Below, in pieces: positions 2,104-19,234 of a stretch of 64,000 bases of DNA. The DNA is from Cladosporium halotolerans (Eukaryota), in the NCBI RefSeq assembly GCF_011745625.1, contig NW_027191463.1, forward strand, positions 124,001-188,000. Reading direction: 5' to 3'. The notes under the pieces were generated by a model. It did not search any database and was not told where the DNA came from. It saw nothing but the letters and a program-made list of their open reading frames with translations. The position numbers and the translations under genes are program-made. Positions within the stretch are counted from its first letter, which is position 1; the number at the start of each line of letters is the position of its first letter.

Positions 2104-2955
2104 CAGGGTGTTTTTCTCTGCGACAGGCGCTCAGGCGGCGGGCATGCCGTGGGCGGTCCTAGGGAGGGAAATGCAAGCAAGGAAGAGATGAATAACCGAA
2201 CGCTGGAAATGACGCTGGAAGCGAAAATGCGGCGTGAGCTGTGTGGTTTGTACTGCGGTGCCTGCAGCGTTCCTGAGATCGGCGGGCGTGGGAAATGTGC
2301 CGTGCCTGGCGTCTGAGGCGCAAACACACGTCACCGCGCCGCACTGCGCTCCGGCCGGCTGGGAATTGCGAGAACCCCGGGGCTGATCGTACAGTAGAGC
2401 GGCGAAAAGGGCGTGGGCGTGGGCGTGGTGGGAATTCGGGAGTGGGCGATGTGAGCGTTCACCAGAGGGTCCGCACACGGCGTATATATTGTTCGCAGGC
2501 TACACACAAGGCGAGGGCACGCGACATTCTCCTCTTTGTCCATGGCCCGATCGACCGACCGACCCCATGGCATTTGTGCATTTGTGAGGCTTTAGCAGAC
2601 GCCGCGGCCGGGCCAATCAAGCCTGCAGCACGCGCACGTTGCTCGTTGCACAGCAGACGCGCGCAGTGCGAGCGACGCCTCCCCCTCGCCTGACCCGCTC
2701 AGCTGCTCATCACTGCTCACCTTGATGGCTTCACCTGCCTGACCGCCCACTACCGCACGCCTACCCAACATTCGCAGCGTTGAGGGCGTGTGTTGGCGAA
2801 AGCACGGGAGGCCGTGTCGGCTCGACGGGGAGATCTTGGCCCTTTGCCGAGGGCGTCGATTGGCGGCTGTAGCCGTGGTGTATAGGATATGTACTTCTGC
2901 ATCGCTACTGTATACCTAGCATACAGACTACCCGCCCGGCTCGCGCACTCCAAGC

Positions 2956-3438
2956 TCAGTCGACCTTGACGCGTCCCCAGATCCCGCAGACCACGGCCAG
3001 CCGCGCGACCACGAACGGCCATGTGGTGAGCGTCACCACCCACTCCTCCGAGCTCCAGCCGCCCACCTGCGCCCACACGCTCCAGCCGCCGATCGCCTGC
3101 GCGCACGAGTGGCAGTACGCCGCGTCCGACAGCAGCATGCCCGCGCACAGGAGCCTCCACACGCGCGCGTCGTCCACCAGCCGGAGCACGACGGCCTCCG
3201 TGAAGGCGAAGTGCAGCCAGCCGCCCAGCAGTTCCGTGTAGATGAAGTCCGAGCCGGTTTGGATCGAGGTCACGGCCTGTCTGGTCATGTTGGATGTGTA
3301 GTGTCCTGGGTTCAGGAGCAGCAGGGCTGCGCCGCCGAGCGCGAAGAGCGGTTCGACATTGAGGAGGAGGAATCGCCAGATGAAGGGGATCGTCGCGGAA
3401 GCCGTTTGGCTGCCTCGCGTGGGGGCCACGTTGGGCAT
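2956..3438 (-). CDS. Small multi-pass membrane protein of unknown function (160 aa)
   Basis: Single ATG-initiated ORF with about 4 hydrophobic segments (FLLLNVEPLFALGG, ELLGGWLHFAFTEAVVLR, VWRLLCAGMLLSD, WPFVVARLAVVCGIW) and coding-like codon use. Confidence 0.75.
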   Translation of the reverse strand: MPNVAPTRGSQTASATIPFIWRFLLLNVEPLFALGGAALLLLNPGHYTSNMTRQAVTSIQTGSDFIYTELLGGWLHFAFTEAVVLRLVDDARVWRLLCAGMLLSDAAYCHSCAQAIGGWSVWAQVGGWSSEEWVVTLTTWPFVVARLAVVCGIWGRVKVD

Positions 3439-4312
3439 GATGGACGAAACAGTAGTAGGTGAATAATGTCTCTTCGGCAGGTATGCGCTCCGTCCTTGGT
3501 GTTGATTTCACGCCGTACTCGGTGCGCTCGATGATAACGATCACTCCGATGCTGTAATGGCACGGAAGCCGGAACAAGAACAGCTAAGAGTCCGCAAGAC
3601 ACCTCCGCAACGCGTGAAGCTTGACTCGCGTCCGCCGTTCAAAGTTCTACTGATCAGCCACCGCCGCTAACCGCTCCCCACTTACATCAGGCACGTCAAA
3701 GAAATTTGTCGCGACGGAAACCAGATGGAAGCACCTTATCTGAGCAGCCAGCGTGGCCGAAGCGTGCTAATTACGCGGCGGGCAAGTTCGCAGTCCTCAT
3801 GACAACATCGCCGCCGACTAGCACGCCCAAACCCCGTGGGCACGCTGGCGAACACCGTGGACACCCGACGGGAGGAATGGCCATACCGCAGAAGGGCCTA
3901 TCGCTCGATTGGCTCGCGCAGGGCAACGTTATGTAAAAAGTGTGGGCGGCCCCGAAGTCCTCACGACACCGACGTTCCACCATGCCCATTCCGCGCGGGC
4001 GCGGACGCAAAGAATTTCGCAACCGCTCTGGCGCTGCCATGTCATGCCCGTCAAAGCCGCCCTCAACCGAGCGAAGCAGGGCCCTCCTTAAGGTAGGTAC
4101 CGCACGCCTTCACCTCGCCGTGAGCATCATCGCCCCCAGACCGGTTCGCCAAAGCAAACCCCAACCCCATATCTGCGCGATCCGTGACCTGGAGACAGTT
4201 CTCTGCTGGCTTCGGGGCGACCGCGGCGGCTTTCCTTTTTCTCTTTCTCCAACTGTGTGGGAGTTGACCTTCCAACTACTGTCTTTACTGCCTTCCTGTT
4301 CAACGAGAAATC

Positions 4313-5896: not shown

Positions 5897-6851
5897 GGAG
5901 CTGAGATTGAGAACATGTGAAGCAGCGCTTTTATTTTATGGCCTTGACGATACCCTTACTGTATGTAGTGTTCTGCGGGACAGAATCGAACGAAAGCGAA
6001 TGGAGTGAGCTCAGCTTTTGCAGAGCCGCATCGCTTGGCGTGCTCGCCAGCTACACATGTATATATGCGACTTCCGAACGAACGAACGATTAAAACACAC
6101 TCCCATCAGTCTCGGCACGCTTCATCCATTGGCCGCCCACACCTGACTTGTGCACGCGGCTGCAGACAGCCGAGGGCGCCGTGCCCCAGAGGCGCAGCAG
6201 CGCGAATGCTTCTCTGGTCGCTTCCAGCACTCCAAACACATGATCGGCCGTAATTTAAACACCAGGGGCACGTCGTGCGAGGCTAACCTTCTGCACGCCA
6301 GCCGCAGCGCCGCATGGCCAGACGGGCCACTAACACGCTGCCCTGGCGAGCCTCTCCCGTGTCTGGGCGGATATGCCGGCACCTTTCGCACTTTGACTCG
6401 GCCAGGCGCTCCGCGGCAGCGCCTAGTGGCCAGGGCTCGCCCGCTTTATACGAGTCGAATCTGCTGCCCGCCACGGCCTCTTTGCGCCTAGCGACACCGT
6501 AAACCCAATGCAATAGTGCGACCCTCGCGCGGCCGCCCGCGCATTGGCCGCCGCCGACGACAGACTGGCCCTCTCGGATCTGAAGAGCACCCACGCCATG
6601 TCGTAGGGCCACGCTTGCAGCGCCGGCCAGGGCCCGCCCGGGTCGTCGCCCAAAATACAACTCGCCGCCGTCCTGGTGCTGGCCCTTGGGGGATCTGCCT
6701 CGCTGCCGTCGTCTCCGTCTGCCTCGAATCGACGGTGCAACATAAGTCGCTTTTCTCCCACCCACGTCGCTCTCTCGAGTCCCGCACCTGCTTTCGTTGT
6801 TCACCACATTCATTGTCCTTATTTCTATTTTCTTAATACAAATCAGGCATC

Positions 6852-8708
6852 ATGCGTGCCCAAGAGTCTCTCGTTCTTTCCCTTCTCTCCACCGCCGCCG
6901 TCGCCGCCCCGTCCTGCAAGGCCAAGCACAGCGGCGCCGCTCGCGACACCTCCGACAAGCACGTCGCCGAGCTGCGCGACCAGGTCTCCTCGCTCCGCGA
7001 GCAGCTTCAGAGCGTCTACCAGCAGCCCAGCCAGGCCTGCCAGGCTCACTCCAAGGCCACCAACTATGGCAGCGTTCCCACCGCCGGCTTCACGGCCGCT
7101 TTCACCGCCGCGATGAGCACCGGCGCCGCCAGTGCCACCATGCCCGCCGCCTACGAGTCCTACTTCTCCTCCGTGGGCCCCGTCTCTCGCCTGAAGCCCA
7201 CTTCCGTTCGCTCTTACGGCTCATCCACCGGTGCCCCGGCCCCGACTGGTGTTGGCAAGGACGATGGTAGCGACAGCGGCAGCGAGGCTGGCAAGCCCCC
7301 CGGCTACGCCTCATCTGGTGCCTCCATGGGTGCCTCTGCTGGCGCGTCTGGTGCTGCCTCTGATGCTGCTACCTCTGGAGCATCTGGCGCCGCCTCTTCT
7401 GAGGCTCCTTTCCCCACCTTCTCCACCTACTCCAACGGCACCTCTGTCAACCACCAGGCCACTGGCACTGGCGCCGTCGGCAGCTCCTCCTCCGTGGTTC
7501 TTTCCACCGGCGCGAGCAGCTCTGTCGCCACCACCTCTTCCTCTGCCGCCTCCAGCTCCAGCACTGGCGTCTCTCCCACTTACGTTCCCAAGCTCTCGGA
7601 CTACACCGACGCCGAGATCGCCAACGGTGACGCCTGGAAGGAGGTTGCCAAGATCGCCGACGACCGCATGAAGGCTCGCGACGACCTCACCGGCAGCTGC
7701 ACCTACGAGACCGCCGAGGTTCGCACTGAGTTCAGGGCCATGTCCAACGACCAGCGCAAGGCCTTCACCGACGCCGTCTCTTGCCTCCAGAACATGCCTC
7801 CCCAGGTCATGACTGCCGACCAGAGCTCCAAGTACGCCGGTGTGAAGAGCAGGTACGACGAGTACGTCGCCACTCACATCGAGAACACGCTCAACATCCA
7901 CGCCACCGCCGACTTCCTCGCCTGGCACAGGCACTTCATCTTCGAGTTCGAGCAGGACCTGAAGAACAGCTGCGGCTACACCGGCACCCTCCCCTACTGG
8001 GACTGGGCCGCCGACGCCCAGGCCGTCGACCAGAGCGAGCTCTTCAACGGTGACGAGTACTCCATGGGCTCCAACGGCGAGTACATCGCCGGCCGCGAGG
8101 ACACCTACCTCGGCCTCCAGGACATCAACTTCCCGCCCGGCACCGGCGGCGGCTGCGTGTACAGCGGCCCCTTCAGCAACACGAGCTACACCACCAACCT
8201 CGGCCCCATCGACTCGCCCTACAACAACAACGTCGAGGGCCACTTCGACTTCAACCCGCGCTGCCTCGTCCGCGACCTGAACTCCTGGTTCTCGCAGCGC
8301 TACAACACCTACACGAACGTCGCCGACCTCGTCCTCGGCGAGGACAGCGTGCAGTACTTCCAGGCGCTGATGCAGGGCTACCTCGGCGACAACAAGCTCG
8401 GCGTGCACGGCGGCGGCCACTGGCTCGGCGGCGGCCCCTCGCAGCTCGAGGACTTCCACTCCTCCCCCAACGACCCCGTCTTCTACATCCACCACGCCAT
8501 GATCGACCGCATCTGGACCGCCTGGCAGTACATGGACCGCGAGGCCCGCCAGGACGCCATCTACGGCACTTCCACCCTCAACAACTCCCCGCCCTCCGCC
8601 GACATGACTCTCCAGGACTCCCTGCCTTTCGGCCTCGTCACGGAGAGCCCCGTGCTCGGCGACCTCATGGACACCCTCAAGGGCCCGTACTGCTACCGCT
8701 ACGAGTAA
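6852..8708 (+). CDS. Secreted tyrosinase/catechol oxidase (type-3 copper) with N-terminal coiled coil and low-complexity linker, 618 aa
   Basis: Signal peptide; CuA region RYDEYVATH..IH..FLAWHR..LPYWDW; CuB region VHGGGH..SPNDPVFYIHHAMIDRIW; ends CYRYE. No introns. Confidence 0.93.
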   Translation: MRAQESLVLSLLSTAAVAAPSCKAKHSGAARDTSDKHVAELRDQVSSLREQLQSVYQQPSQACQAHSKATNYGSVPTAGFTAAFTAAMSTGAASATMPAAYESYFSSVGPVSRLKPTSVRSYGSSTGAPAPTGVGKDDGSDSGSEAGKPPGYASSGASMGASAGASGAASDAATSGASGAASSEAPFPTFSTYSNGTSVNHQATGTGAVGSSSSVVLSTGASSSVATTSSSAASSSSTGVSPTYVPKLSDYTDAEIANGDAWKEVAKIADDRMKARDDLTGSCTYETAEVRTEFRAMSNDQRKAFTDAVSCLQNMPPQVMTADQSSKYAGVKSRYDEYVATHIENTLNIHATADFLAWHRHFIFEFEQDLKNSCGYTGTLPYWDWAADAQAVDQSELFNGDEYSMGSNGEYIAGREDTYLGLQDINFPPGTGGGCVYSGPFSNTSYTTNLGPIDSPYNNNVEGHFDFNPRCLVRDLNSWFSQRYNTYTNVADLVLGEDSVQYFQALMQGYLGDNKLGVHGGGHWLGGGPSQLEDFHSSPNDPVFYIHHAMIDRIWTAWQYMDREARQDAIYGTSTLNNSPPSADMTLQDSLPFGLVTESPVLGDLMDTLKGPYCYRYE

Positions 8709-11148
8709 GCGTGCGGCGCGCACAAGGGGAAGGGGGCTAGCGGGGCGTGTCTTCAGAGAGCTCTGAGAGAGAGACACGTGGGCCTGACACAACGGCTTTA
8801 CCGGGCCGGAAATTCTTTCCTATAACGCTTCTTCTTGCCATGCATGTCTCATTTTCGTCATCATGTCTCTAGCCGTTTTTGTGTGTTTCCTTGATTTCCC
8901 TTGACTCTTTCTATTCTTACCTCGTAACTTCCATGAACCGAAGTCGAGCACATGTCTTATCTATCTATCCACCGGTAGACTAGCATTGTCCAAACGAAAA
9001 AATTGTCTCAGACACCAATCTTCGAATTTCTCTCGCTTTCGTAGTATTCAGGAACTCACCCGAAACGTCTCTATCATCTCGCATACGGCCCGCTTCGAGC
9101 ACAACAACTGACTAATGCCGCCACCTGCCCTACGCACCGGCGCGGATGCCACGCCCTCTCCAAGACCTCGCCACGCGACTGAGACTTCACTAAGGTACTG
9201 ACTGACTGACATCGTCACGCCGTGCACCGCAATGCCGGCACTGCCACGCCGCGCACAGACTCCGTCACCCGCGATGCAGAACAGAAGTAGCATCCCAGTC
9301 TTACAGCACAGTACCTCAATAACCGTAGGGCGGGAGCGGAAGGCCATGGAACCCGACTTGGAAGGCTGTGGGAGGAGTGGAGCAGGCGGGCATCATGGCG
9401 GGGAGTTTAATTTCTCGCGGCGGGCTATTCTCGTCTTGTCGACTCGTATACGTAGCTGGGGGCAGTAGACAGACGGGTCGCTGACAGAACTCTGTGTGTG
9501 TGTGCTGCTTCTGGCTTAGGTACAGTACTTGGCTACCTAGCCAGTTCCTTCGGCTGCCGCTGTGGAGAGGAGCTCGGAGGACTACTGACCGGTTGGGCGG
9601 AAACGCTATTGGGAACACGACGCGACGCGTGCGGTGCGGTGCGGTGCCGGGTTAGCCAAGCAAGCGAGGCAGGGCAGGGCAAGCGGGTTTCGTCGACTCG
9701 TGTTCGCTTTGCGCTGCAGGCGAGGGCTGCGTGGGAATTATTGGATGGCGCGGTGCGTTAGGAAAGGTGTCATGACACGCTATCGTTATTACTGAGAGAG
9801 GGCTTAAGTCGCTGCTCGCCTCGTCTCAGAACACGAACGTGGACGGGACGTGTCAGGCGTGCGTGCATGCATATGTGCCCTTCAGGTAAGGCAATTTCCC
9901 ACCGTCAGGCCAGCCAGCCAGACAGACAGAATGAGGTCACGACAAGGTTGGCGCCAGCCCACGACGACCAAGACTTCTGACCGCGTGCGCCGCCGCGGCT
10001 ATGCAGGTACGAAGCCAAAGCAAATTGTTGGCCGCCCTTCCCGCCTTTTGCCCCTGAGCAGAAGTGACATTTGTGGCGTTGGCTTGCTGTTTTGGGCGTG
10101 ATGGATGTGGGACGGCGACGAATCAGGGCTGCGCGCGGCTCAACCGAAGTCTGTTCCTGCGTGCGCGTGTGCGCCACGTATATTATTATGTTTTTTGTTG
10201 GCTGAGGCGAGTGAAGGGGATGGATGCATTCTACCTGCTGTGTGCGTGCATGGACTGCCACGGCCGCGGACGAGTGACTAGAACACTACCGCCATGCCAT
10301 GCCATGCCATGACCAGCTCGCCTTCAGGCCAGAAGGCCGTTTCCCATCTGGTCGGAACGCAGAAACGGGCGCCGTCTCGCGCGCTGCACGGCGATCCCCG
10401 TTCGGTCTGCGGCCGTTCTGCTACTGCACTGCTACTGGCCAGTTCTTCAATTCAACGGCCAGTCTCGGCCGCGGGCTGCTGCGATCGATGCGCCGGGCCA
10501 GAAAGTCTGCCGGCCGGGGCGTGGAGCGGATGGGTGCGCTGGCGGCTCGTTCATGGCGGCCTCAAGCAATCATAGCGCTGCTCGCCTCGGACTGCGCACC
10601 GCTAGACGGCGCCGGCGCGCGTATCCTGCGATCCGCGGACGGCGGCTGTCTTTGTCCTAGCGTTGCTCTCTGTCACGCTCTGCAGGCACACCCGCTCCCG
10701 CAGCAGCATCCTGGACAGCCTTCCGCCGCCGCTCAACGCCATGCCCCTTCTGCGCGCACCGGCGCCACCAAATTTAGCCGCATGGCGTGCGAAGGCCCGC
10801 AATCATCGCGGCCGCCGCCTGCTAGACCGTCTTAGCACCGCCCGGCGCTGGTGATACGAGGCGATCAGACGCCAGATGCCGCCCACGCGGAGCCTGCGGC
10901 AGGCCTCGCGCCCCATGTCCACGCCCAGCCCAAGCACTCGTCCATCCCGCCGCCCGCCAGGCCACACATCTATTACCCAGCGCTCGCCTCTGCCTTTCCA
11001 CCCTCTCTCTCCTCCTCACGTCTTTCGTTCAGCACCGCCAGCTCTTTCTTGTCAATCCGGGAGAGAAAGCCGCGTGCTCGTTCGCACACCTTTCCACCCT
11101 TTTTCCTCTCTTATTTATTAATTTATTTGTCGGGAGAAAGACGCAACC

Positions 11149-13911
11149 ATGCGCGCCGACGTGCCACTCTTTGCTTCCCTTCTGGCGGCCTCGGCCGCCG
11201 CCCAGAACGTCACGGGCTCTTACAACTCCTCCTCTTCCGTCGACAACTCCTACTCCAAGAACAACAACGCCAAGATCGTCGCTGAGCTCGAGGCCGAGGT
11301 CGCCGCTCTCCACAAGCAGATCGACTCCGCCAAGCAGCAGACCTGCGACGCTCCCGCCAGCCCCGTCGCTGGTGGCTCTGGCTCCGGCTCTGGCTCTGGC
11401 AACGGCGCTTCTTCGCCCGCTGGATACTCTGCCCCCGTCAACCCGGCTGGCTCCCAGGCCACTGCCGCGTCTGGCGAGGACAACACCCACAGCGGTGCTG
11501 ACTCCAAGGCGCCCGCTGCTGGCTCCCCGGCTGGCTACACTGGCTCCAACCAGGGCTCTTCCAACAACGGTGGCTCGCCTGCCGCTCCCGCCTCGGGCTC
11601 TGACAAGCCTGCCGGCTACTCCAGCGACGACTCCTCTGCTCCCTCTTCTGGCTCTGACAAGCCCGCTGAGTACTCCGGCGAGGGCTCCAACTCCGGCTCC
11701 AGCTCCGGCTCTTCCGACTCCGGCGACGTCAAGAACTACGGCGAGTACTACGCTCCCAACGCGCCCACCTCTGGTGCCAAGTCCACCTCCACTGTCACTG
11801 TTATTGTGACTGCTGGCCAGACTGAGACTGCCCACCTGACCAAGACTGCCACCGTCACTGACGCTGCGGAGTCCGCGTCTGAGACTGGCGACGTTGAGAT
11901 CGTCACCGCAACTGAAACATACTGCGGCAAGGGCCCGATCCCCTCGGCCCCTGTCTCTAGCGCCGGCTCGGGTAGCAACGGCAACGTTGGCAAGGCTTCT
12001 TCTGCTCTTTCCAGCGTTCTCTCTTCTGCCATCCCCAGCTACGGTTCTTCTGAGGGTGTCATCAGCTCCACCCGCGGTTACTTCACCAACGGCACCCACG
12101 TTCCTTACCCTACCGGCGCCTCTTCTGGCCTGCAGACCACCACCCGTGGTGCCTCCGACACTCTTTTCACCTCCAGCAGCGTCGCTGTCAACCCCGCCGG
12201 CAACTCTACCACTTCCGCTTTCCAGACCGGCGTCGTCCCGACTGGCACTGGCGTCTCTTCTTCTGCGTCTGCTACTGCCACCGCTGCCGTCGAGATGTCT
12301 GACTGCGCTACCTTCTGCGAGTCCCTCGACTCCTTCAACGGCTGGGATGTTACCCCTCTCACCTGCACCCAGCACACCGCTGGCACCCAGGTCAGCTCTC
12401 CGTCCGGCCAGTCTAGCGTCGGCTGCGCTGCTTCCTTCACTCCTCAGGTCGACCTTTGCCAGGTCACCATGAACATCAAGACCAGCGGCACTGCCGAGAC
12501 CTACGTCGAGGTCTGGCTCCCCAACGCCAACGAGACTTCCTGGAACGGTCGCTCGATGAACACGGACAACGGTGGCCTCAACGGCTGCATCCACTACGTC
12601 GACATGCAGTACGTCACCGGTATGGGCTTCGCCGCCATTGGTGACAACGCTGGCCACAACGGCAGCTCTTTCGACGGCACCTGGACCCTGAACAACAACG
12701 AGGCCATCATCGACTGGTCTTACCGCTCCCGTCACGCCGCCGTCGAGGTCGGCAAGGAGACCATCGACCAGTTCTACAACAAGGCTGCGGACTACTCTTA
12801 CTACGTCGGCTGCTCTGCCGGTGGCGCCCAGGGTATCCAGTCCGCCGAGAAGTTCCCCAACGACTTTGACGGTATCATCTCCGGTGCTGCTGCCAACGAC
12901 TTCAACCACCTCCAGGGCTGGTCTGCCACTTTCCGCAAGATCACTGGCTCCACTTCCAACGACACCTTCCTCACCTCCGATGATTGGGTCTTCGTCCAGA
13001 GCTACATCCTCGACCAGTGCGACGAGGCTCTTGACGGCGTTGCTGACGGTATCATTGAGGACCCCACCCGCTGCGAGTTCGACGCCTCTGTGATCCCCGT
13101 CTGCTCTGGTGATGCCACCGACAACTGCCTTACTGCCACTCAGATCCAGACTGTCGAGGACGTTTTCAAGCCCCTCTACGACACCGAGGGCAACCTGATC
13201 TACCCCGCTCTCCTTTACGGTGCCCAGGTCGACGCTTTCAAGCTTGGTCTGCTCAACGGTGGCATCCAGGGTATTGCCCAGGACTGGTTCCGCGGTGCCG
13301 TCTTCAACGACTCCAGCTTCGACATCACCACCATCACTGATGAGGATATCGCCCTCGGTGTCTCCCAGGACGACCTCCACGGCAACCCCTCCGCCTTCTC
13401 CGCCGAGCTCGGTGAGTTCAACGCCGCCGGAAAGAAGCTCATGGTCTACCACGGTATGGCCGACCCCATGACCTCCGGCGGCAACTCCCAGCGCTACTAC
13501 CTCAAGGTCGCCCAGAAGCTCGGCCTCTCCAACACCGAGATCGACGAGTTCATGCGCTTCTTCCGTATCTCCGGTATGGCCCACTGCGGTGTCGGCGGTA
13601 TCTCCGGCGCCGGTGCCTGGATGTTCGGCCAGAACGGCGCCGCCTCCGCCGCCTCTAACAACATCGTCTCCAACCTCGTCGACTGGGTCGAGAACGGCAA
13701 CGCCCCGGACACCCTCCGCGGCACCAAGTTCTGGTACGACACCCCCTCCATGGGCGTCATGTTCGAGCGCGACCACTGCCGCTTCCCCTACCGCACCACC
13801 TACAAGAGCGGTGACTCCACCCTCCCGGAGTCCTGGGGCTGCGAGATGATCGAGAACTGGCAGGACTGCGCCGACAAGTACTGCAACGCCGACGGCCAGA
13901 CTTTCACTTAA
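11149..13911 (+). CDS. Secreted tannase/feruloyl esterase with ~380-aa N-terminal extension, 920 aa
   Basis: Signal peptide; EVWLP..WNGR, GCSAGG (catalytic Ser), FPNDFDGII, CDEALDGVADGIIEDP..C, YHGMADP (Asp) and FFRISGMAHC (His) give the CS-D-HC tannase-family signature. No introns. Confidence 0.93.
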   Translation: MRADVPLFASLLAASAAAQNVTGSYNSSSSVDNSYSKNNNAKIVAELEAEVAALHKQIDSAKQQTCDAPASPVAGGSGSGSGSGNGASSPAGYSAPVNPAGSQATAASGEDNTHSGADSKAPAAGSPAGYTGSNQGSSNNGGSPAAPASGSDKPAGYSSDDSSAPSSGSDKPAEYSGEGSNSGSSSGSSDSGDVKNYGEYYAPNAPTSGAKSTSTVTVIVTAGQTETAHLTKTATVTDAAESASETGDVEIVTATETYCGKGPIPSAPVSSAGSGSNGNVGKASSALSSVLSSAIPSYGSSEGVISSTRGYFTNGTHVPYPTGASSGLQTTTRGASDTLFTSSSVAVNPAGNSTTSAFQTGVVPTGTGVSSSASATATAAVEMSDCATFCESLDSFNGWDVTPLTCTQHTAGTQVSSPSGQSSVGCAASFTPQVDLCQVTMNIKTSGTAETYVEVWLPNANETSWNGRSMNTDNGGLNGCIHYVDMQYVTGMGFAAIGDNAGHNGSSFDGTWTLNNNEAIIDWSYRSRHAAVEVGKETIDQFYNKAADYSYYVGCSAGGAQGIQSAEKFPNDFDGIISGAAANDFNHLQGWSATFRKITGSTSNDTFLTSDDWVFVQSYILDQCDEALDGVADGIIEDPTRCEFDASVIPVCSGDATDNCLTATQIQTVEDVFKPLYDTEGNLIYPALLYGAQVDAFKLGLLNGGIQGIAQDWFRGAVFNDSSFDITTITDEDIALGVSQDDLHGNPSAFSAELGEFNAAGKKLMVYHGMADPMTSGGNSQRYYLKVAQKLGLSNTEIDEFMRFFRISGMAHCGVGGISGAGAWMFGQNGAASAASNNIVSNLVDWVENGNAPDTLRGTKFWYDTPSMGVMFERDHCRFPYRTTYKSGDSTLPESWGCEMIENWQDCADKYCNADGQTFT

Positions 13912-14940
13912 GCGTATGTGCTTGAGTTGAGAGCGCTTGTCACGAAATGATACGCACACTGTCTGTTTCGCGTTTTGCACGACAAAAGGAAAAGAAAATC
14001 CACAGCGGCAGTTCCAGCACTGCTTCGCGGGGGGAGGAAGAGAACGAAAACCCCAACCACGACCACAGTCGGTCAGGACTATTTTCCTTTTCTTTTTGGC
14101 CTCTCTCTCGTAGCACTGCTTTGCCTGCTACTCTTTTTTTCCTTTTGGACAACTTGTCGACAACATTTTCTTTTCTCTGATCTAAACTTTCCTTTTTTTC
14201 CTTGTCTCTCTTTCTCTTCTTCTCTAGTGTACAATTTACTATAGATCGCCCTAGAATCTTTAGCAAGATACGCTACATACTTTGAACTACACAGATGCTG
14301 TATACGATATGGTGGAACGAATCTACTTTCATGACCTCTGTATGCAGTGAATCAATCGTGCAACTTCGGCGTTGTCTCTCCGCTGACATCCAGTGGGTGA
14401 GGTAGGCTTGCTTGCTGCTGACCGCGCGAAACCCTCGGACATGAGGTCGCGACTTTGGCTTCTTTCCAATACATACCCACGGACTCTACTTGTGTCGCTG
14501 GACTTGGACGCACTCGACTCCGCTACTCGACGTCCCGATTTGACCGCTCCGGAGGCTCGGTCAGGGACGTTCCACGGCTCTGCCTGCTGCCAGCGACACA
14601 GACTTGGACGTTTTCTCTCTGGCCTTGGGAGAGAGGGTCAGGAATCCGTCGACTTCCGCGCGTTGGATCCGATACACGATTGACACGATCGACGGCTGTC
14701 GAGGCGGGTTCTGTTCTGGCCTCTCCGTCGCAGGCGTCGGCTTGCTGAAGGAGAGTCCGGTAGCCCGCGCGCACGCTTGCCTTTCTGACTACATTACTGT
14801 ACTGTAAACTGACCGGCACGGATTCAAGCATTGTGCTGTGCTGCGCTCAGACGATTCGCATCCAAACGTCTCCCATGCAGTTCGTTCTACCCACGCATCT
14901 ATCTACCCACCAGCAAACGCGACCCTCAATTCATCACCCT

Positions 14941-16962
14941 TCAACCCCCAATCCCATCCCAAACCCTCCCCCACGCGACCTCCGTCCCCCCCTCCCCCTC
15001 CTCCCCCTCGCTGTCCTCAGCGTAAAACCGCACCCCCACATTCCCCTCGCAGCCCTCGTACAACCGCGCGCTCAGCGCCGTCCGCCCGTTGACGAACACT
15101 TCTAGCACCGAGTTGTCGCGCCACGCGCGGATGTGCAGGGGCTCGGTGGAGAGGGCGCCGGTGCGCGGGTGGCGGGTTGTGAAGAGGGTGTGCGGGGCGA
15201 GGGTCGGGGCGGTGTTGATTTGTGATGGGGTGGAGATGGAGGATGGAGGGGTGAGGGTTAGGAGTTCGGAGGCGGGCGCGAAGGAGAGGGTTGTTGTTTT
15301 GGGGTGTGTGGGGTCTGCTGCGTGTGTCAGTCAGTCTTTGCTCGGAATGGATGGATGGATGGATGTTGGGAATGGGGACAAACGTACCGCTCGAAGAATG
15401 CACGATCTGCACCCCGACCTCCCTGCACGTCTTCGCGAGCTGGAACCCGACGTCGAGCTCCCACGCCGTAGTCCGCACGTCGAACGCCAGCCCGCCTCCG
15501 TCTCGCCCCGGCAGCGCAGTGCCCGACGTTTTCGCGCTGGTCGCCGCCCTCGCGCTCCGCCGCAGCTTCTCGACGGCTTCGCGTACGGGCTCGCTCGCGA
15601 GCGTCCGCACCGTGTGCGCTCCTTGCCCGTCAGGCTGCGCTTCGACCGAAGTGATGCCCTTCAGATCCGAGCTCCAAGCGCCCACCACGTTCCTTATCGT
15701 CTGAAGGTGGATTTCTCGCGGCAGCGACAACATCCCGCTCCACCCCTGCTCGCGCCGCAGCTCGTCGCAAAGGTCCTCCTCCGTGATCCAGCCCCAGACG
15801 ACGTGCTTGCGCAGCCTGGGGCAGAAGAAGGAGTTGGCGGCGTAGAAGGCGCCGTGGTCGAGGTGGGAGCCGAAGGCGAAGGGCATTGTTACTGGACTTG
15901 AGGAATTGGAAGGGGAGGAAGGGGTCAGGGGGCCGGACATCCAGAGTTGGTTGCGGGCGGGGCGGGTTGGGGTCGTGGAGGTGGAGGAGGGGGAGAGGGC
16001 GGAGGGCAGGCAGCCTTCGGTGCCCATTATGAGGAACTCGCGGGAGAAGGAGGGGTCAGAGGGGTCGGAGAGGGTCGCGAAGTTGGTTACTTCCCAGTTG
16101 ACGCCTAGGTCGCCGGACCACTTTGAGGGGCGGAAGTTGAGGCCGAAGTTCACGAGGGGCCCGACGTAGGTCCATTTGGTGGGGTCAGCGGCTTCGATGC
16201 TGTACAGGAAGGTGGTGGGCGTGACGTCGCGGATACCGCCGGAGATGATGCCGAAGAGGGTTGTTTCGGCGTCGAGGTTCAGGGCGGCGGCCATCGAGGG
16301 CCAGGCACTGACGAAGGGGTCGCGGAAGCCGGTGACTTCGAGGTTGGGGGGTTCGCTGGGCAGGATGGGGTTGGACGCGTACTTTTGCCAGGTGAGGCCG
16401 TTGTCGTGGGATTTGGCCATGCTGAGGGATTCGCTGCCTTTGACGTGCGGCAGGGTGTGGTGGATGGGGAGGGCGCCGATGGAGGTGTAGACGTAGGTCA
16501 GGGAGCCGTCGCGGGTGGGCACGTTGCAGCCGGTGAAGACGCCTTTGCCGTCGTAGGGTGTGTCTGGCACCAGGGTGGGTTTGTGCTTGATGTCCCATGA
16601 GACGAGGTCGGGTGAAGTTGCGGTTCGCCACGAGATCTCGCCCCAGTCTGCGTTGGTGAGGTCGAGGCTTGATTGGTATGAGACGTGATAGAGGCCTGTC
16701 GCTGGGTTGTAGTGGGGAGCACATGGATCCTGGAAAGGGTGAGTCTGTGTCTTTGGGAGGTAACTGTGATGTGAATACTAACGTTCATCCATCCTGAAGG
16801 AGCTTGGAGGTGGTATGATGGTCTCCATCGTTGGAAGGCTGACTTTGATGCTCCTGATGGTTTTGTCTCGAATTCTTGAGAAGACGAGAGGCTTGTGATG
16901 TTGGTGGACCCTGATGAGTTGCTCGGACTGCGAGACATCTCTCTCGAGCTTGTGTCGCTCAT
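14941..16962 (-). CDS. Intracellular GH32 beta-fructofuranosidase (invertase/SucB-like)
   Basis: Splicing intron 16730-16782 gives the WMNDP nucleophile motif. FTG, FRDP, WEV, YAANSF and LSLPRE motifs follow. A second intron near 15317-15386 restores the C-terminal DNSVLEVFVN..SARLY, with TGA at 14941-14943. No signal peptide. Confidence 0.9.
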
Positions 16963-17560
16963 TGTGCCGGGTGTTTGAAGGTAGAATCAACCAATTTGTG
17001 CTGTACCGTCAAGACTTGCAAGCTGAAATGGAAGCAGATGAGAGAACAAGAGAATCGACGGGATGTTTTCGATAACTGACCGAAGGAAAGGTGCAGATAG
17101 CGTTTCATATTCTTCAAGCTGCCACGACATGCCGCGATCTGACCGAGCCTAGTCTTGACCAACATTTTCCACGCGTCCCCGCGTCCGGAGTAACACCTTC
17201 GGCGCTATTATTCTCTTGGTACGAGATAGCAGTTGGAATCCGGGGATACGATCTAGCCTCCGGTAATAGAGTTCATCCGGACATTCAGTCCGGCGAAACC
17301 TGCCGTTTTCGCAACATCCTCTCCGTTCCCCAGCACGCCTCCGCACAATCCCCATGCATCTGCTCCGGTCCCCAGACACTCTCTCCAGGTTATCCCGCAA
17401 AGACTATCTGGGAGACAATGCGGTATATCTTCAGCGATCTGCCGCCATGTGGTCTGAACTCCACAGCAGCATCAAGTCGATCAATCTCCACTCATCACTC
17501 ATTCACTTCCAACCCTCACCTCAGAACGGCCTTTGCCCTTGAGGCTTCGCGCTCACCACA

Positions 17561-19234
17561 ATGACTTCCAACAACACCAAGCAGTCTGTCGACGCTGAAA
17601 TGTCTTCAGTCGACAAGAAAGACATCGTTCACCTTGAGACCACTTCAATGGACTCCCAAACGAAGGAGGAAGTCCGTCAGGTCACCAACTTGACCGCGAA
17701 GGAACAGTATGCCAAACTTGGCGCAGCAATCAAGGCCGACAAGCGCTTCGTCTGGTGGACCTTCTATGTCATGCTCCTTGTCTTCAGCTGGGGCTACGAT
17801 GCTGGTCTATCAGGTGTTGCCATCGCCTTCCCTGAATTCAGAGAATACTACGGCAACTACTATGCCGACGGCAGCCAATGGGTCATTCCAGCTCTTTGGC
17901 AGTCTCTCTGGAACGCAGCTTCGACCATTGGCCAAGTCTTCGGTGGCTACGCCGCTGGCCAGTTCGCCGATGTTACTGGCCGCAAGCCCCTGCTTTACCA
18001 TGCTGTCGTCCTGTCCTTGGCTTCATCTTTCGCCCTGGTCTTCGCCCCCAACCTTCCAGTCCTCTTCGTCTCTAAGCTCTTGCTCGGATTGTCTGTCGGC
18101 CTTTCCACTGCCACGCCTCCTCTCTACGTCACCGAGAATGCCCCCGCAAACCTCCGCAGCACCGCATCGTCGTTGACCAACATCATCATCGTCTTCGGCT
18201 TCTTTGCCTCGTCCATGACTGGCTTCGGTGCTTCCAAGATCGCCGGCGAATGGTCCTTCCGACTTGCTTTCTGCATGACCTTCGCTATGCCAACCATCTT
18301 CCTCGTCGGCCTGCCGTTCTTTCCGGAAAGCCCCGTCTGGTACATGAAAAAAGGTCGCGAAGCCGATGCACGCAAGGCTATTATTAAGCTCTTCGGTGTC
18401 GATACTGATGTTGATGAGCGCATTGACATTATTAAGACCGAGCTCAAGCAGGCTGAGGCTGAGGAGAACGGCAAGAGCCAAACCAGCTGGAGCGCCATTT
18501 TCTCGAAAGAAAACCGCACCCGCACCTTCGTCTCCGTCCTTGGCCTCCAATCTCAGAACTTCTCTGGCGGTTACTTTGCTAACACGTATCAAACTTATTA
18601 CTTTGAGCTTATTGGGCAAAAGGATCCTTTTGCGTTGACCGCGGTATCGTCGACATTGCAGTTGTTGGCCAACTTCGTCGCGGTATTGCTTGCCGACGTT
18701 GTGCCGAGACGCAAGGGAGTCATCGGAGGCGGCACGATCCTCATGTTCTGGTCCGTCATCATTGCCGGAACCTCAATGGCTGGTACGGATAACATCGCCG
18801 CCAACACCGCCCTGCTGGCCTTCATGATCACCTGGTCCATGCTCTACACCGGAACCGTCGGCTGCTACGGCTGGGCCGTGGCCCAGGAGACCGCCTCGCA
18901 GGCCACCAGGCCCAAGACGATCTCCTTCACGCTCATCTGCCAGCAGCTCACCGCGCTGATGCTGTCCTCCGTCTTCCCCTACTTCATCAACCCCGATCAG
19001 CTCAACTGGGGCGGAAAGATCATGTTCCTGTTCGTCGGCGCGGAGCTTTTCATCATGACCGCTCTGTGGTTCTTCCAGCCCGAGACCAAGAACAGGAGCT
19101 ATGCGGACATTGAGATCTTGTACGCTGCTGGCATTCCCCCTCGCCAGTTCAAGAACTTTGCCGTTGTTGATGGCCAGGTGATTGAGAGGGAGCAGAAGGA
19201 CGGTTTCCTTAGCCGCTTCTCTAGGAAGGCGTAG
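17561..19234 (+). CDS. MFS sugar porter, maltose/alpha-glucoside (sucrose) permease-like
   Basis: 557 aa; GYDAG, GRKPLL, YVTENAPANLR, PESP, PETKNRSYADIEIL and IPPRQFK motifs; 12-TM pattern. Confidence 0.92.
   Translation: MTSNNTKQSVDAEMSSVDKKDIVHLETTSMDSQTKEEVRQVTNLTAKEQYAKLGAAIKADKRFVWWTFYVMLLVFSWGYDAGLSGVAIAFPEFREYYGNYYADGSQWVIPALWQSLWNAASTIGQVFGGYAAGQFADVTGRKPLLYHAVVLSLASSFALVFAPNLPVLFVSKLLLGLSVGLSTATPPLYVTENAPANLRSTASSLTNIIIVFGFFASSMTGFGASKIAGEWSFRLAFCMTFAMPTIFLVGLPFFPESPVWYMKKGREADARKAIIKLFGVDTDVDERIDIIKTELKQAEAEENGKSQTSWSAIFSKENRTRTFVSVLGLQSQNFSGGYFANTYQTYYFELIGQKDPFALTAVSSTLQLLANFVAVLLADVVPRRKGVIGGGTILMFWSVIIAGTSMAGTDNIAANTALLAFMITWSMLYTGTVGCYGWAVAQETASQATRPKTISFTLICQQLTALMLSSVFPYFINPDQLNWGGKIMFLFVGAELFIMTALWFFQPETKNRSYADIEILYAAGIPPRQFKNFAVVDGQVIEREQKDGFLSRFSRKA

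What the first reader, a model, noticed from the sequence alone, without database searches (positions are those of the whole stretch)
6852..11346. Adjacent tyrosinase and tannase share a near-identical N-terminal coiled-coil + Cys module: candidate self-assembling extracellular enzyme complex
Seen: two neighbouring, co-oriented, intronless secreted enzymes have unrelated catalytic folds, yet both start MRA and carry the same segment shortly after the signal peptide. Tyrosinase has K-H-VAELRDQ-VSSLREQ-LQSVYQQ-PSQAC (about 6957-7040); tannase has K-I-VAELEAE-VAALHKQ-IDSAKQQ-TC (about 11272-11346). Both are three heptads with V/L, V/L, (L/I)/(V/A) at a/d positions, share K,V,A,E,L,V,L,Q,S,Q,Q and end in a Cys. 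Each is then joined to its catalytic domain by a 180-320 aa flexible linker. Established: such a module is not part of the canonical type-3 copper or tannase domain, and short heptad repeats mediate oligomerisation. Inference: the module is a docking tag that homo- or hetero-oligomerises the enzymes, possibly disulfide-locked, into a tethered phenolic-processing assembly loosely analogous to a mini-cellulosome. It may have been shuffled onto other secreted enzymes too.
Basis: partly seen in the sequence, partly recalled or inferred. Interest (0 to 1): 0.88.

Follow-up and report, generated by a model that had tools for sequence, protein, structure and literature searches.

The report
Shared zipper-Cys tag, two fungal enzymes
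Two neighbouring secreted enzymes of a Cladosporium-like mould, a phenol oxidase and a feruloyl esterase/tannase, start with the same short helix-plus-cysteine segment on a long flexible stalk; this conserved, undescribed tag probably joins enzyme molecules, but how is not shown.

Summary
ORFs 6852-8708 (618 aa, PF00264) and 11149-13911 (920 aa, PF07519) each begin with a signal peptide, a three-heptad amphipathic helix and a Cys at the stated coordinates. The helices are 11/24 identical, so "near-identical" overstates it. The module is conserved in all orthologues found. The two families' N-terminal profiles match at hhalign 97% (E 1.4e-11), and 0 of 150 heptad-preserving permutations reach the observed score. 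Homology stops at residue ~67-70; the linkers are unrelated. The closest relatives of the oxidase without the extension are ~391-393 aa, so the extension is an add-on.

The gene pair is syntenic in 4 of 4 close relatives with enough flank, and head-to-head in a more distant one. The catalytic domains resemble AoCO4-type short polyphenol oxidase and feruloyl esterase B. Short PPOs act on ferulic acid, so a two-step pathway is plausible.

My best reading (0.40) is a leucine-zipper oligomerisation tag, homotypic by default. A hetero-complex of the two enzymes is neither supported nor excluded. The mostly even Cys counts fit an intramolecular disulfide equally well. No third enzyme family carrying the module was found, but the searches could not see divergent carriers. 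No Pfam family or paper describing the module was found.

The parts
6852..8708 (+). Gene 1: secreted short polyphenol oxidase (AoCO4-like catechol oxidase/tyrosinase family), 618 aa, with N-terminal extension
   Evidence: ORF. PF00264. Best solved relative is 4j3p catechol oxidase, query 276-617. An RNA-library contig lies colinear on 6708-8986.
6852..6908 (+). Signal peptide of the oxidase (res 1-19; cleavage site inferred)
   Evidence: Hydrophobic MRAQESLVLSLLSTAAVAA. Mean pairwise identity among 18 orthologues is 0.81. Its DNA is the top direct repeat with 11148-11202 (71% over 55 nt). No signal-peptide predictor was run.
6909..6956 (+). Pre-helix segment of the oxidase, with Cys22; basic and His-rich in the family
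   Evidence: C22 is present in 17 of 18 aligned orthologues. His is 12.2% here against 2.3% in the rest, over 29 oxidase N-termini.
6957..7040 (+). Shared module in the oxidase: three-heptad amphipathic helix (K36-Q58) ending in PSQAC (C63)
   Evidence: L41, Q44, L48, R49, S54, P59 and C63 are invariant in 18 sequences. The helix-start to Cys spacing is 25 (26 in two). hhalign to the tannase module. Heptad table.
7041..7583 (+). Linker of the oxidase (about 180 aa; S+T 31%, G+A 28%) with conserved islands and one conserved N-glycosylation sequon
   Evidence: Mean pairwise identity is 0.46, against 0.82 for the catalytic part. No KR/RR site in 0 of 18.
7584..8705 (+). Catalytic type-3 copper domain of the oxidase, with six conserved Cys
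   Evidence: Cys 283, 311, 374, 435, 471 and 614 are present in 18 of 18. Extension-less relatives of 391-393 aa hold exactly these 6 (7 of 7).
8709..11148 (.). Intergenic region between the two genes (2.44 kb), not conserved in relatives
   Evidence: No tblastn or blastn match of this region in the 41 related loci. No promoter repeat is shared with the region upstream of 6852.
11149..13911 (+). Gene 2: secreted tannase-family carboxylic ester hydrolase (feruloyl esterase B-like), 920 aa, with N-terminal extension
   Evidence: ORF. PF07519. Best solved relatives are 6g21 and 3wmt feruloyl esterase B, query about 384-900. An RNA-library contig lies colinear on 11018-14090.
11149..11202 (+). Signal peptide of the esterase (res 1-18; cleavage site inferred)
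   Evidence: MRADVPLFASLLAASAAA. Mean pairwise identity 0.83. Aligned with the oxidase signal peptide by hhalign.
11203..11271 (+). Pre-helix segment of the esterase: N/S/T-rich, two N-glycosylation sequons, conserved DNSY
11272..11346 (+). Shared module in the esterase: three-heptad helix (K42-Q64) ending in TC (C66)
   Evidence: K42, V44, L47, E48, L54, A61, T65 and C66 are invariant in 15 sequences, including Hortaea and Cryoendolithus. The helix-start to Cys spacing is 22 (21 in one).
11347..12300 (+). Linker of the esterase (about 320 aa) with PAGY[ST]G repeats, beta-prone T/V/I islands and a second Cys (C259)
   Evidence: Mean pairwise identity 0.42. KR/RR in 1 of 15.
12301..13908 (+). 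Catalytic tannase/feruloyl esterase domain with 16 conserved Cys

Best explanation
The window holds a conserved gene pair of a Cladosporium-like fungus. One gene encodes a secreted short polyphenol oxidase, the other a secreted tannase-family feruloyl esterase.

In both proteins a 245-385 aa extension has been inserted between the signal peptide and the catalytic domain. The first ~65-70 residues of the two extensions are homologous, i.e. they share an origin. They comprise the signal peptide, a short family-specific spacer, a three-heptad leucine-zipper-type helix with consensus [VI]-A-[ED]-L-x-x-[QE]-[VIA]-x-[SA]-L-[RK]-x-[QE]-[LI], and an invariant Cys just after it. The rest of each extension is an unrelated low-complexity stalk, probably O-glycosylated.

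Most likely mechanism (inferred, not shown): the narrow V/L hydrophobic seam of the helix is buried by pairing with another copy in a parallel coiled coil. A dimer is favoured by beta-branched residues at position a and Leu at d. This would give a tethered oligomer of catalytic heads on flexible stalks, with the flanking Cys able to lock it by an interchain disulfide. Homotypic pairing of each enzyme is the default; pairing between the two enzymes is possible.

Shown: homology, conservation, heptad pattern, add-on nature and synteny. Inferred: helix pairing, oligomeric state, disulfide partner and retention of the extension in the mature enzyme.
For: 1. The module is conserved in every orthologue recovered. 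This covers 21 oxidase hits (module seen in all 21, 19 by regex and 2 by eye) and 22 of 23 esterase hits (the 23rd lacks its N-terminus). The esterase hits include Hortaea werneckii (Mycosphaerellales) and Cryoendolithus antarcticus (Cladosporiales).

2. The oxidase and esterase N-terminal profiles match at hhalign 97.4%, E 1.4e-11, and the helix alone at 95.9%, E 5.1e-9. 0 of 150 heptad-preserving permutations reach the observed score. Homology is confined to residues 1-67 and 1-70 and includes the Cys column.

3. In the heptad table the a/d positions have the lowest entropy (L at d1 and d2 in 65 of 65 strings, V/I at a1 in 65 of 65). Positions g are Q/E only and e2 is R/K in 62 of 65, a classical g-e' pair. 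5 of the 65 strings were unrelated coiled coils.

4. The module is under more constraint than its surroundings: identity is 0.68 and 0.72 for helix plus Cys, against 0.46 and 0.42 for the linkers.

5. It is an add-on. 7 of 7 complete extension-less relatives are 391-393 aa and go straight from signal peptide to catalytic domain. Solved homologues align only from query 276 and about 384 onward.

6. The nearest solved sequences to the module profile are all coiled coils, such as SYNZIP1, the disulfide-linked BST-2 ectodomain, GABA-B, GCN4 peptides and c-Jun, at E 9e-4 to 1. This is likeness, not homology.

7. Three lineages have an odd number of extension Cys (Hortaea esterase 1; L034 oxidase 1; L015/L029/L030 oxidases 3). 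There a Cys must be free or bonded to another chain.

8. No conserved dibasic processing site lies in the extensions (0 of 18 and 1 of 15).

9. A regex for the helix hits only these N-termini in 433,736 bases read in six frames (25 of 25 hits).
Against: No structural or experimental evidence for pairing was obtained.

The helix has only three heptads, which is marginal for a stable coiled coil without a lock.

Extension Cys counts are even in 57 of 62 distinct extensions (2 in 56, 4 in 1). The second Cys sits at different places in different lineages: before the helix, or +13, +55 or about +170-205 after the module Cys. This looks like repeated selection for a partner Cys within the same chain, i.e. 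an intramolecular disulfide. In terms of independent lineages the split is about 6 even to 3 odd, so this does not decide the matter.

The similarity of the helix alone can be matched by unrelated natural coiled coils (99 of 16808 windows).

The AF2 model of the whole oxidase was unusable (mean pLDDT 32.5). Its helix 31-56 has pLDDT only 35-41.

Whether the extension survives in the mature secreted enzymes is unknown.
Confidence: 0.4

Rival explanations
1. The shared module pairs the oxidase with the esterase in a heterotypic coiled coil, possibly disulfide-locked. Ferulate released by the esterase would then be oxidised next door, in a tethered two-enzyme assembly.
For: The two genes are adjacent and co-oriented in 4 of 4 close relatives with enough downstream flank (L001, L002, L004, L005) and in the window. 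They are head-to-head in the more distant L010, whose upstream gene starts with an esterase-type extension (43% identity over 166 aa to esterase P0041, E 1e-11).

The modules are homologous.

Short PPOs hydroxylate methoxylated monophenols, including ferulic acid (PMC5424327 passages; PMC11803259 passages). The esterase's best solved relatives are feruloyl esterases.

Weak hint: in the six same-contig pairs, the a3 residues are complementary L/I in 5 of 6, and oxidase g2 with esterase e3 go Q,Q / Q,Q / E,K / E,K / Q,K / Q,S (read). This represents only 2-3 independent lineages and is not significant.
Against: The Cys lies 25 residues after the helix start in the oxidase and 22 in the esterase, each fixed within its own family. 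The Cys are therefore in register only in homotypic pairs.

Oxidases of group B carry the module with no esterase within 2-10 kb on either side (0 of 5 loci with long flanks: L014-L017, L029).

Adjacency may reflect co-regulation alone.

No scaffold or third carrier was found.
Confidence: 0.12
2. Intramolecular role. The module Cys bonds to the second Cys of the same extension. The helix then packs back on its own chain as a stapled N-terminal cap, serving folding, latency, copper loading in the oxidase, or stiffening of the stalk. No oligomer forms. It may be removed on maturation.
For: Exactly two extension Cys occur in 33 of 37 distinct oxidase extensions and 23 of 25 esterase extensions. 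The second Cys lies at non-homologous positions in different lineages.

The six catalytic-domain Cys of the oxidase match the number that forms three disulfides in AoCO4 (bioRxiv 10.1101/2021.02.26.433144 passage). The extension pair is thus self-contained.

The oxidase pre-helix is His-rich (12.2% against 2.3%).
Against: Lineages with 1 or 3 extension Cys exist.

The same module heads two unrelated catalytic folds, so a fold-specific chaperone or latency role is unlikely to be the shared function.

No conserved dibasic cleavage site is present.

In the esterase the partner Cys is about 170-205 residues away in low-complexity sequence.
Confidence: 0.22
3. Anchor. The helix and Cys dock the enzymes, by coiled coil and/or disulfide, onto a third, unidentified cell-wall protein. 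The glycosylated stalk then displays the catalytic head at the hyphal or conidial surface, in the manner of disulfide-tethered yeast wall proteins.
For: The stalks have mucin-like composition (S+T about 30%, G+A 22-30%, conserved N-glycosylation sequons).

The esterase stalk holds beta-prone T/V/I islands of the kind found in wall adhesins (the adhesin comparison is recalled).

The named carriers are melanised Dothideomycetes.
Against: No partner was identified. The module profile found no further protein, though sensitivity was low.

There is no GPI signal or PIR repeat, because the C-termini are the conserved catalytic domains.
Confidence: 0.13
4. No shared function. The common 5' end is a relic of an old partial duplication between neighbouring genes, or a convergent amphipathic helix, kept only as part of a secretion leader.
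For: The signal-peptide DNA is the best direct repeat in 6000-11450 (71% over 55 nt). Unrelated coiled coils can match the helix at the pairwise level.
Against: The helix plus Cys is more conserved than the flanking spacer and linker in both families (0.68 and 0.72, against 0.42-0.47). It is kept across at least four oxidase lineages and across two orders for the esterase. The Cys and the a/d residues are invariant.
Confidence: 0.13

Closest known systems
Fungal short polyphenol oxidases (type f; AoCO4 of Aspergillus oryzae, PDB 4j3p; TtPPO 6z1s; MtPPO7)
   Same: The catalytic part (res ~276-617) aligns with 4j3p over its whole length (E 6.1e-94). There is no C-terminal shielding domain. There are six conserved Cys, and AoCO4 has three disulfides. 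A signal peptide is present.
   Different: The solved 4j3p chain is 383 aa and the extension-less relatives found here are 391-393 aa. This protein has about 225 extra residues between the signal peptide and the domain, starting with the zipper-Cys module. I did not see such an extension mentioned in PMC11803259: a term search of its text found 'N-terminal' and 'coiled' 0 times.
Tannase-family feruloyl esterases B (AoFaeB 3wmt; 6g21; 6fat)
   Same: Residues ~384-900 align end to end with these chains (E 1e-102 to 6e-115). The GCSxGG and HC motifs are invariant (the motif assignment is recalled).
   Different: The solved chains are 507-563 aa. This protein is 920 aa, with a ~365 aa extension after the signal peptide.
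Disulfide-linked parallel coiled coils of extracellular proteins (BST-2/tetherin ectodomain; from memory also COMP/thrombospondin and matrilin oligomerisation domains)
   Same: An extracellular location, a short heptad helix with Cys at its end, and flexible arms that carry functional heads. BST-2 chains are among the best solved matches to the module profile (E 0.0024-0.06).
   Different: There is no homology; the E-values are at generic coiled-coil level. Those are animal proteins. Here the helix has only three heptads and its pairing is not shown.
Disordered C-terminal tail of the LPMO CoAA9A of Colletotrichum orbiculare (PMC10990093, abstract read)
   Same: A secreted fungal oxidative enzyme whose low-complexity extension carries a Cys that makes a disulfide-linked, extended homodimer and affects activity.
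   Different: That tail is C-terminal, and the abstract mentions no coiled-coil helix. It belongs to a different enzyme family, with no sequence relation tested or expected.
Cellulosome dockerin-cohesin assemblies
   Same: The idea of a small non-catalytic tag shared by different secreted enzymes, on linkers.
   Different: No dockerin or cohesin domain was detected. A Pfam scan of both extensions at E up to 10 lists only weak helical families. No scaffold protein was found, and there are only two carrier families.
Yeast a-agglutinin Aga2-Aga1 type disulfide tethering of wall proteins (recalled, not tested)
   Same: A secreted protein held at the wall through disulfides near one terminus, with a glycosylated stalk.
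   Different: No sequence relation was tested, and no partner is known here.

Membership tests
Pfam PF00264 tyrosinase / fungal short PPO (AoCO4-like) | Match to the type-3 copper central domain above the curated cut-off | tested here: met
   183.1 bits against a cut-off of 22.6, residues 332-560. 4j3p E 6.1e-94.
Pfam PF00264 tyrosinase / fungal short PPO (AoCO4-like) | Six copper-ligand histidines kept | tested here: met
   H342, H350, H359, H519, H523 and H547 are invariant in 18 sequences. Which His are the ligands is assigned from memory of the CuA/CuB patterns.
Pfam PF00264 tyrosinase / fungal short PPO (AoCO4-like) | No C-terminal shielding domain (this defines 'short' PPOs; PMC11803259 passage) | tested here: met
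   The protein ends at residue 618, aligned to the last residues of 4j3p (query 617 = chain 382 of 383). Pfam finds only PF00264.
Pfam PF00264 tyrosinase / fungal short PPO (AoCO4-like) | o-Methoxy phenolase activity on G-type phenols | not testable with these tools
   Known for characterised members only. An enzyme assay is needed.
Pfam PF07519 tannase and feruloyl esterase | Match above the curated cut-off over the whole domain | tested here: met
   236.2 bits against a cut-off of 29.8, profile 19-489 of 490. 6g21 E 5.6e-115.
Pfam PF07519 tannase and feruloyl esterase | Catalytic Ser in GCSxGG, plus Asp and the His-Cys motif | tested here: met
   G554, C555, S556, G558, G559, D772, H812 and C813 are invariant in 15 sequences. 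The motif definition is recalled from the AoFaeB literature and was not read here.
Pfam PF07519 tannase and feruloyl esterase | Substrate: feruloyl esters or gallotannins | not testable with these tools
   The best solved relatives are named feruloyl esterase B. Specificity needs an assay.
Disulfide-locked parallel coiled-coil oligomerisation domain | At least three heptads with hydrophobic a/d and polar e/g positions | tested here: met
   Heptad table: a = V/I, V/I/A, L/I; d = L, L, A/V; g = Q/E; e2 = R/K.
Disulfide-locked parallel coiled-coil oligomerisation domain | The segment is helical | tested here: inconclusive
   DSSP helix 31-56 in an AF2 model with pLDDT 35-41. The profile's solved matches are all coiled coils.
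Disulfide-locked parallel coiled-coil oligomerisation domain | Conserved Cys flanking the helix | tested here: met
   C63 is present in 18 of 18 and C66 in 15 of 15. The spacing is fixed within each family.
Disulfide-locked parallel coiled-coil oligomerisation domain | Forms oligomers; the Cys makes interchain bonds | not testable with these tools
   Needs SEC-MALS or CD of peptides, non-reducing gels and disulfide mapping. Cys parity is ambiguous.
Cellulosome-type docking system | Dockerin (Ca-binding duplicated segment) on the enzymes | tested here: not met
   No dockerin family appears in the Pfam scan of either extension, even at E up to 10.
Cellulosome-type docking system | Scaffold protein with several receptor modules, and many different enzymes carrying the tag | tested here: not met
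   Only PF00264 and PF07519 proteins or their fragments carry the module: 6 of 6 full N-terminal matches, and 34 of 34 hits. Sensitivity is limited.
Kex2-processed propeptide | Conserved dibasic KR/RR site between the pro-region and the mature domain | tested here: not met
   0 of 18 oxidase and 1 of 15 esterase extensions hold KR or RR. The site rule is recalled, and other proteases are not excluded.

The most novel reading that the evidence does not exclude
The zipper-Cys module is a fungal extracellular docking tag. It heterodimerises a feruloyl esterase with an o-methoxy-phenolase-type oxidase on long glycosylated tethers, giving a disulfide-locked two-step ferulate-processing machine at the hyphal surface. 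The Tyr-rich PAGY[ST]G repeats of the esterase stalk and the His-rich segment of the oxidase would be working parts: oxidase-driven cross-linking into the melanised wall, and copper capture. This would be a non-cellulosomal way for fungi to assemble secreted enzymes.
Probability: 0.1. Interest if true: 0.85.

Novelty: new variant of a known kind. Interest (0 to 1): 0.55.

Why it matters
Secreted fungal enzymes are usually treated as free monomers, or as catalytic domains joined to carbohydrate-binding modules. Here a leucine-zipper-type tag with a Cys is conserved at the head of long stalks on two unrelated enzymes encoded by a syntenic pair. That points to controlled self-association or tethering of phenolic-processing enzymes outside the cell, in a group of melanised, stress-tolerant Dothideomycetes.

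If pairing is confirmed, it would add a second example, mechanistically different, to the recent finding that a disordered tail dimerises an LPMO through a disulfide (PMC10990093). It would also give a small natural tag for assembling secreted enzymes, and link feruloyl esterase action to short-PPO chemistry on ferulate.

The module matches no Pfam family above its cut-off. Six literature searches found no description of it.

Tried and rejected
1. Complex prediction on the two modules (oxidase 20-75 with esterase 19-80) returned 'no answer': score 0.25, mark 0.34, controls not folded, and the alignments were not used. This is evidence neither for nor against binding.

2. The AF2 fold of the whole oxidase with the 18-sequence alignment failed (mean pLDDT 32.5, pTM 0.30), so no fold search was made. 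The second fold job was not spent because the alignments are equally shallow.

3. No whole genome is held for this window. A proteome-wide census of carriers in this organism was therefore not possible.

4. The exhaustive profile search (A2, 13 N-termini) over 1.84e9 representatives gave 30 hits at E <= 0.001. Only 6 match the whole profile at the protein's N-terminus, and all 6 are oxidase or esterase orthologues or fragments. The other 24 are generic coiled coils. The word-seeded search for longer proteins gave 34 hits: 21 PF07519, 8 PF00264, and 5 without Pfam domains that are N-terminal fragments of the same two families. However, true divergent carriers score only 25.6-34.0 bits with this profile (E 0.0033-1.3 at library size). 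'No other carriers' therefore holds only for close relatives.

5. The ESM Atlas search on esterase residues 1-90 gave best feature scores of 0.75 (below the usable level) and single-helix structural matches. No lead came of it.

6. Earlier findings of this scan returned nothing by place, sequence or words.

7. The linkers were compared by hhalign. There is no similarity beyond residue ~70; the best match is an 11-column [FY]xNGT motif at P 0.0097, probability 4%.

8. The intergenic 8709-11148 was tested for a hidden conserved gene. There were no hits for 61 stop-to-stop frames of >=35 aa by tblastn, nor for the DNA by blastn, in the 41 loci.

9. RNA-library contigs leave 8987-11017 uncovered in run X1. 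Absence of cover is not used as evidence for separate transcripts.

10. Covariation between the two modules across same-contig pairs gave a pattern, but with only 2-3 independent lineages it was not counted as support.

11. Whole-protein BLASTP does not detect the module.

12. The runs in the look-up of sequencing runs apart from X1 are 'RNA?' guesses, and expression level was not inferred.


Full report
WHAT IS THERE. The region holds two long uninterrupted ORFs on the + strand: 6852..8708 (618 aa) and 11149..13911 (920 aa). Pfam places a tyrosinase central domain at residues 332-560 of the first (PF00264, E 1.2e-53) and a tannase/feruloyl-esterase domain at 450-898 of the second (PF07519, E 9.6e-70).

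The best solved relatives are more specific. For the first protein it is the Aspergillus oryzae catechol oxidase 4j3p (query 276-617 to chain 40-382 of 383, E 6.1e-94), a 'short' polyphenol oxidase. For the second they are feruloyl esterases B 6g21 and 3wmt (query ~384-900, E 5.6e-115 and 5.1e-102). About 225 and 365 residues therefore lie between each signal peptide and the canonical domain.

Named homologues come from Cladosporium fusiforme and C. inversicolor (oxidase) and from Cryoendolithus antarcticus and Hortaea werneckii (esterase). These belong to Cladosporiales and Mycosphaerellales, Dothideomycetes. No whole genome is held for the window.

Contigs of a library recorded as metatranscriptomic RNA lie colinearly on 6708-8986 and 11018-14090 with no joint inside either ORF. 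This fits intronless genes whose transcripts include the extensions. The tool warns that DNA can be present in such libraries.

THE OBSERVATION. The quoted segments are exact: K36-C63 is nt 6957-7040 and K42-C66 is nt 11272-11346. The two helices share 11 of 24 positions, which is similar rather than near-identical. Whole-protein BLASTP misses the segment, and the first 80 aa give E 0.030.

Against shuffles, the pairwise score of 51 is reached by 0 of 5000 plain and 3 of 5000 heptad-preserving shuffles. But 99 of 16808 windows taken from 24 unrelated coiled-coil proteins also reach it. Those proteins were themselves the best generic matches in 1.84e9 proteins. The helix taken alone is therefore not a unique sequence.

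CONSERVATION AND HOMOLOGY. The strength of the case comes from relatives. A search with the oxidase's first 330 residues found 21 proteins, and one with the esterase's first 440 found 23. Every one with an intact N-terminus has the signal peptide, helix and Cys. One esterase hit, P0043, lacks its N-terminus.

The distance from the first helix residue to the Cys is 25 in the oxidases (26 in two) and 22 in the esterases (21 in one).

Profiles of the two families' N-termini match at hhalign probability 97.4%, E 1.4e-11; the helix alone gives 95.9%, E 5.1e-9. The helix score of 34.8 compares with 14.8+-3.1 (max 24.2) for 150 column permutations that keep the heptad register, so 0 of 150 reach it. 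The Hortaea-type esterase helix also lies closer to the oxidase consensus than the Cladosporium esterase helix does.

Comparing the whole extensions shows that homology covers residues 1-67 and 1-70 only. It includes the signal peptide and the Cys column (96.9%, E 1.9e-10). The linkers are unrelated.

At the DNA level the two signal-peptide regions are the top direct repeat in 6000-11450 (71% over 55 nt). The helix DNA is only moderately alike. The shared origin is therefore old, not a recent conversion.

Within each family the helix plus Cys is more conserved (0.68 and 0.72 mean pairwise identity) than the spacer before it (0.42 and 0.47) and the linker after it (0.46 and 0.42). It approaches the catalytic domains (0.82 and 0.78).

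AN ADD-ON, AND WIDER THAN ONE GENUS. A metagenome scan with the oxidase alignment gave 41 loci. These fall into several groups:
- Close relatives carry the same module.
- A second oxidase group at ~44-52% identity (L012-L017, L029, L030) has a different signal peptide and a longer spacer, but the same helix and the same 25-residue spacing to the Cys.
- L010 (= P0021) is a third lineage.
- L034 is a fourth. A module HMM found it at E 0.012. Its signal peptide and spacer look like the esterase type.
- Seven complete oxidase genes (L018, L021, L022, L023, L025, L026, L037) are 391-393 aa, go straight from signal peptide to catalytic domain, and hold only the six catalytic Cys.

The extension is thus an insertion between leader and enzyme that some short PPOs have and others lack.

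THE GENE PAIR. In all 4 close loci with enough downstream sequence (L001, L002, L004, L005), the esterase lies about 2.7-3.3 kb downstream on the same strand, as in the window. In L010 the arrangement is head-to-head. The gene upstream on the other strand begins with an esterase-type extension (43% identity over 166 aa to esterase P0041, E 1e-11), and the contig ends before its catalytic part. In the second oxidase group, 0 of 5 loci with long flanks hold an esterase.

The 2.44 kb between the window's genes holds nothing conserved in the relatives. Other neighbours in the window are unrelated to phenolics: an amino-acid transporter, GH32, a sugar transporter, a GH13 alpha-amylase-family enzyme and a Zn-cluster regulator.

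A functional link between the pair is plausible from the literature. All characterised short PPOs are o-methoxy phenolases acting on lignin-derived guaiacyl units (PMC11803259, passages). MtPPO7 hydroxylates methoxylated monophenols, and guaiacol and ferulic acid were used as its methoxylated substrates (PMC5424327, passages). A feruloyl esterase would supply ferulate. The specificities of these two enzymes are untested.

HOW THE MODULE MOST LIKELY WORKS. Across 65 distinct module strings (5 of them unrelated coiled coils that passed my regex), the heptad a/d positions have the lowest entropy. L occurs at d1 and d2 in 65 of 65, V/I at a1 in 65 of 65, and L/I/M at a3. The g positions are Q/E only and e2 is R/K in 62 of 65. 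This is the pattern of a leucine zipper with a g-e' polar pair. By the recalled rule that beta-branched a residues plus Leu at d favour dimers, it points to a parallel two-stranded coiled coil.

The profile's nearest solved sequences are all coiled coils, among them the disulfide-linked BST-2 ectodomain (E 9e-4 to 1). No Pfam family reaches its cut-off.

A narrow hydrophobic seam on a secreted helix must be buried by something. The simplest partner is another copy of itself.

The Cys evidence cuts both ways. The module Cys is invariant, and three lineages have an odd number of extension Cys, which calls for a free thiol or an interchain bond. These are the Hortaea esterase with 1, the L034 oxidase with 1, and L015/L029/L030 with 3. 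On the other hand, 57 of 62 distinct extensions have an even number (56 with exactly two). The second Cys sits at different, non-homologous places: before the helix in Cladosporium oxidases, +13 in L010, +55 in group B, and about +170-205 in esterases. That is what repeated selection for an intramolecular partner would look like. Counted as lineages the split is roughly 6 even to 3 odd, so it does not decide.

The six catalytic Cys of the oxidase correspond in number to the three disulfides of AoCO4 (passage of bioRxiv 10.1101/2021.02.26.433144). The extension Cys are therefore extra.

No conserved dibasic site suggests removal of the extension (0 of 18 and 1 of 15).

HOMO OR HETERO. The different but family-fixed Cys spacing (25 against 22) puts the Cys in register only in homotypic pairs. 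Group B oxidases keep the module without an adjacent esterase. Both points favour homotypic use.

Conserved adjacency, the shared origin of the tag and the ferulate link keep the hetero-complex alive. So does a weak pattern of paired changes at a3 and g2/e3 in the six same-contig pairs, though it represents only 2-3 independent lineages.

I put homotypic or unspecified coiled-coil oligomerisation at 0.40, an intramolecular staple or cap at 0.22, a wall anchor to a third protein at 0.13, no shared function at 0.13, and the hetero-complex at 0.12.

OTHER CARRIERS. The exhaustive profile search gave 6 full N-terminal matches, all from the two families, plus 24 generic coiled coils. The word-seeded search gave 34 hits, all from the two families or fragments of them. 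A regex and an HMM run over 433,736 bases of related fungal DNA plus the window also found only these two families.

It is not excluded either. The profile gives true but divergent carriers only 25.6-34.0 bits, which is below the reporting threshold at that library size.

COMPARISON WITH WHAT IS KNOWN. The catalytic domains are ordinary members of their families. The tag works like the short, Cys-flanked coiled coils that oligomerise extracellular animal proteins. In concept it also resembles the Cys-bearing disordered tail that dimerises the LPMO CoAA9A (PMC10990093, abstract). It is not a dockerin-type system.

I found no description of it. Six full-text searches returned nothing on an N-terminal coiled coil in fungal PPOs or feruloyl esterases. 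The PPO classification paper does not contain the words 'N-terminal' or 'coiled'. Its supplements, and subscription papers, were not seen.

VERDICT. The feature is real, conserved and undescribed, and I class it as a new variant of a known kind. The 'self-assembling complex' reading is only partly supported. Interest 0.55.

Noticed in passing
window 6909-6956; oxidase N-termini in P0001-P0021 and L010-L030: The spacer between the signal peptide and the helix of the copper oxidase is His-rich: mean 12.2% His against 2.3% in the rest of the protein, over 29 sequences from three divergent lineages. The esterase spacer is not (1.5% against 1.5%, 22 sequences). This could be a copper-capturing segment.
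   Followed up: partly
window 11347-11700 (esterase residues ~67-185): The esterase stalk carries repeated PA[GWF]Y[ST]G motifs, with exposed Tyr in low-complexity sequence. There are 4 in the window protein and at least one in 13 of 15 orthologues. Lying next to a phenol-oxidase gene, these could be cross-linking substrates; this was not tested.
   Followed up: partly
window 11780-11950 (esterase residues ~212-265); L010:1-522 minus strand: The esterase stalk holds conserved beta-prone Thr/Val/Ile islands (STSTVTVIVTAG..., DVEIVTATETYCGKGPIP; in L010 ETQYSTVVSTITRTDSTIVSTIVLT). From memory, these are reminiscent of aggregation-prone stretches of fungal wall adhesins.
   Followed up: no
L034:652-1623: This is a fourth oxidase lineage with the module. 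Its signal peptide and N-glycosylated spacer resemble the esterase type, and its extension holds a single Cys. It looks like an intermediate between the two module types.
   Followed up: partly
L010:1-522 (-) and L010:1904-4099 (+): In a more distant relative the esterase-type gene and the oxidase gene are head-to-head, about 1.5 kb apart, instead of in tandem. The contig ends before the esterase catalytic part.
   Followed up: yes
window 11373-11715: A low-depth contig of run X8 skips 289 bases (11401 to 11691) within the Gly/Ser-rich repeats of the esterase stalk. A second X1 contig matches only short repeat units there. This may be stalk length variation between strains or an assembly artefact.
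   Followed up: no
window 15017-24870: Downstream lies a sugar-utilisation group: GH32 (15017-16777, -), sugar transporter (17543-19234, +), GH13 alpha-amylase-family enzyme (20143-21990, +) and a Zn2Cys6 regulator (23779-24870, -). It has no evident link to the oxidase-esterase pair.
   Followed up: no
window 1-1863 (-) and 2750-3583 (-): These long open frames (621 aa running off the window, and 277 aa) have no Pfam match at E 0.001. They were not examined further.
   Followed up: no
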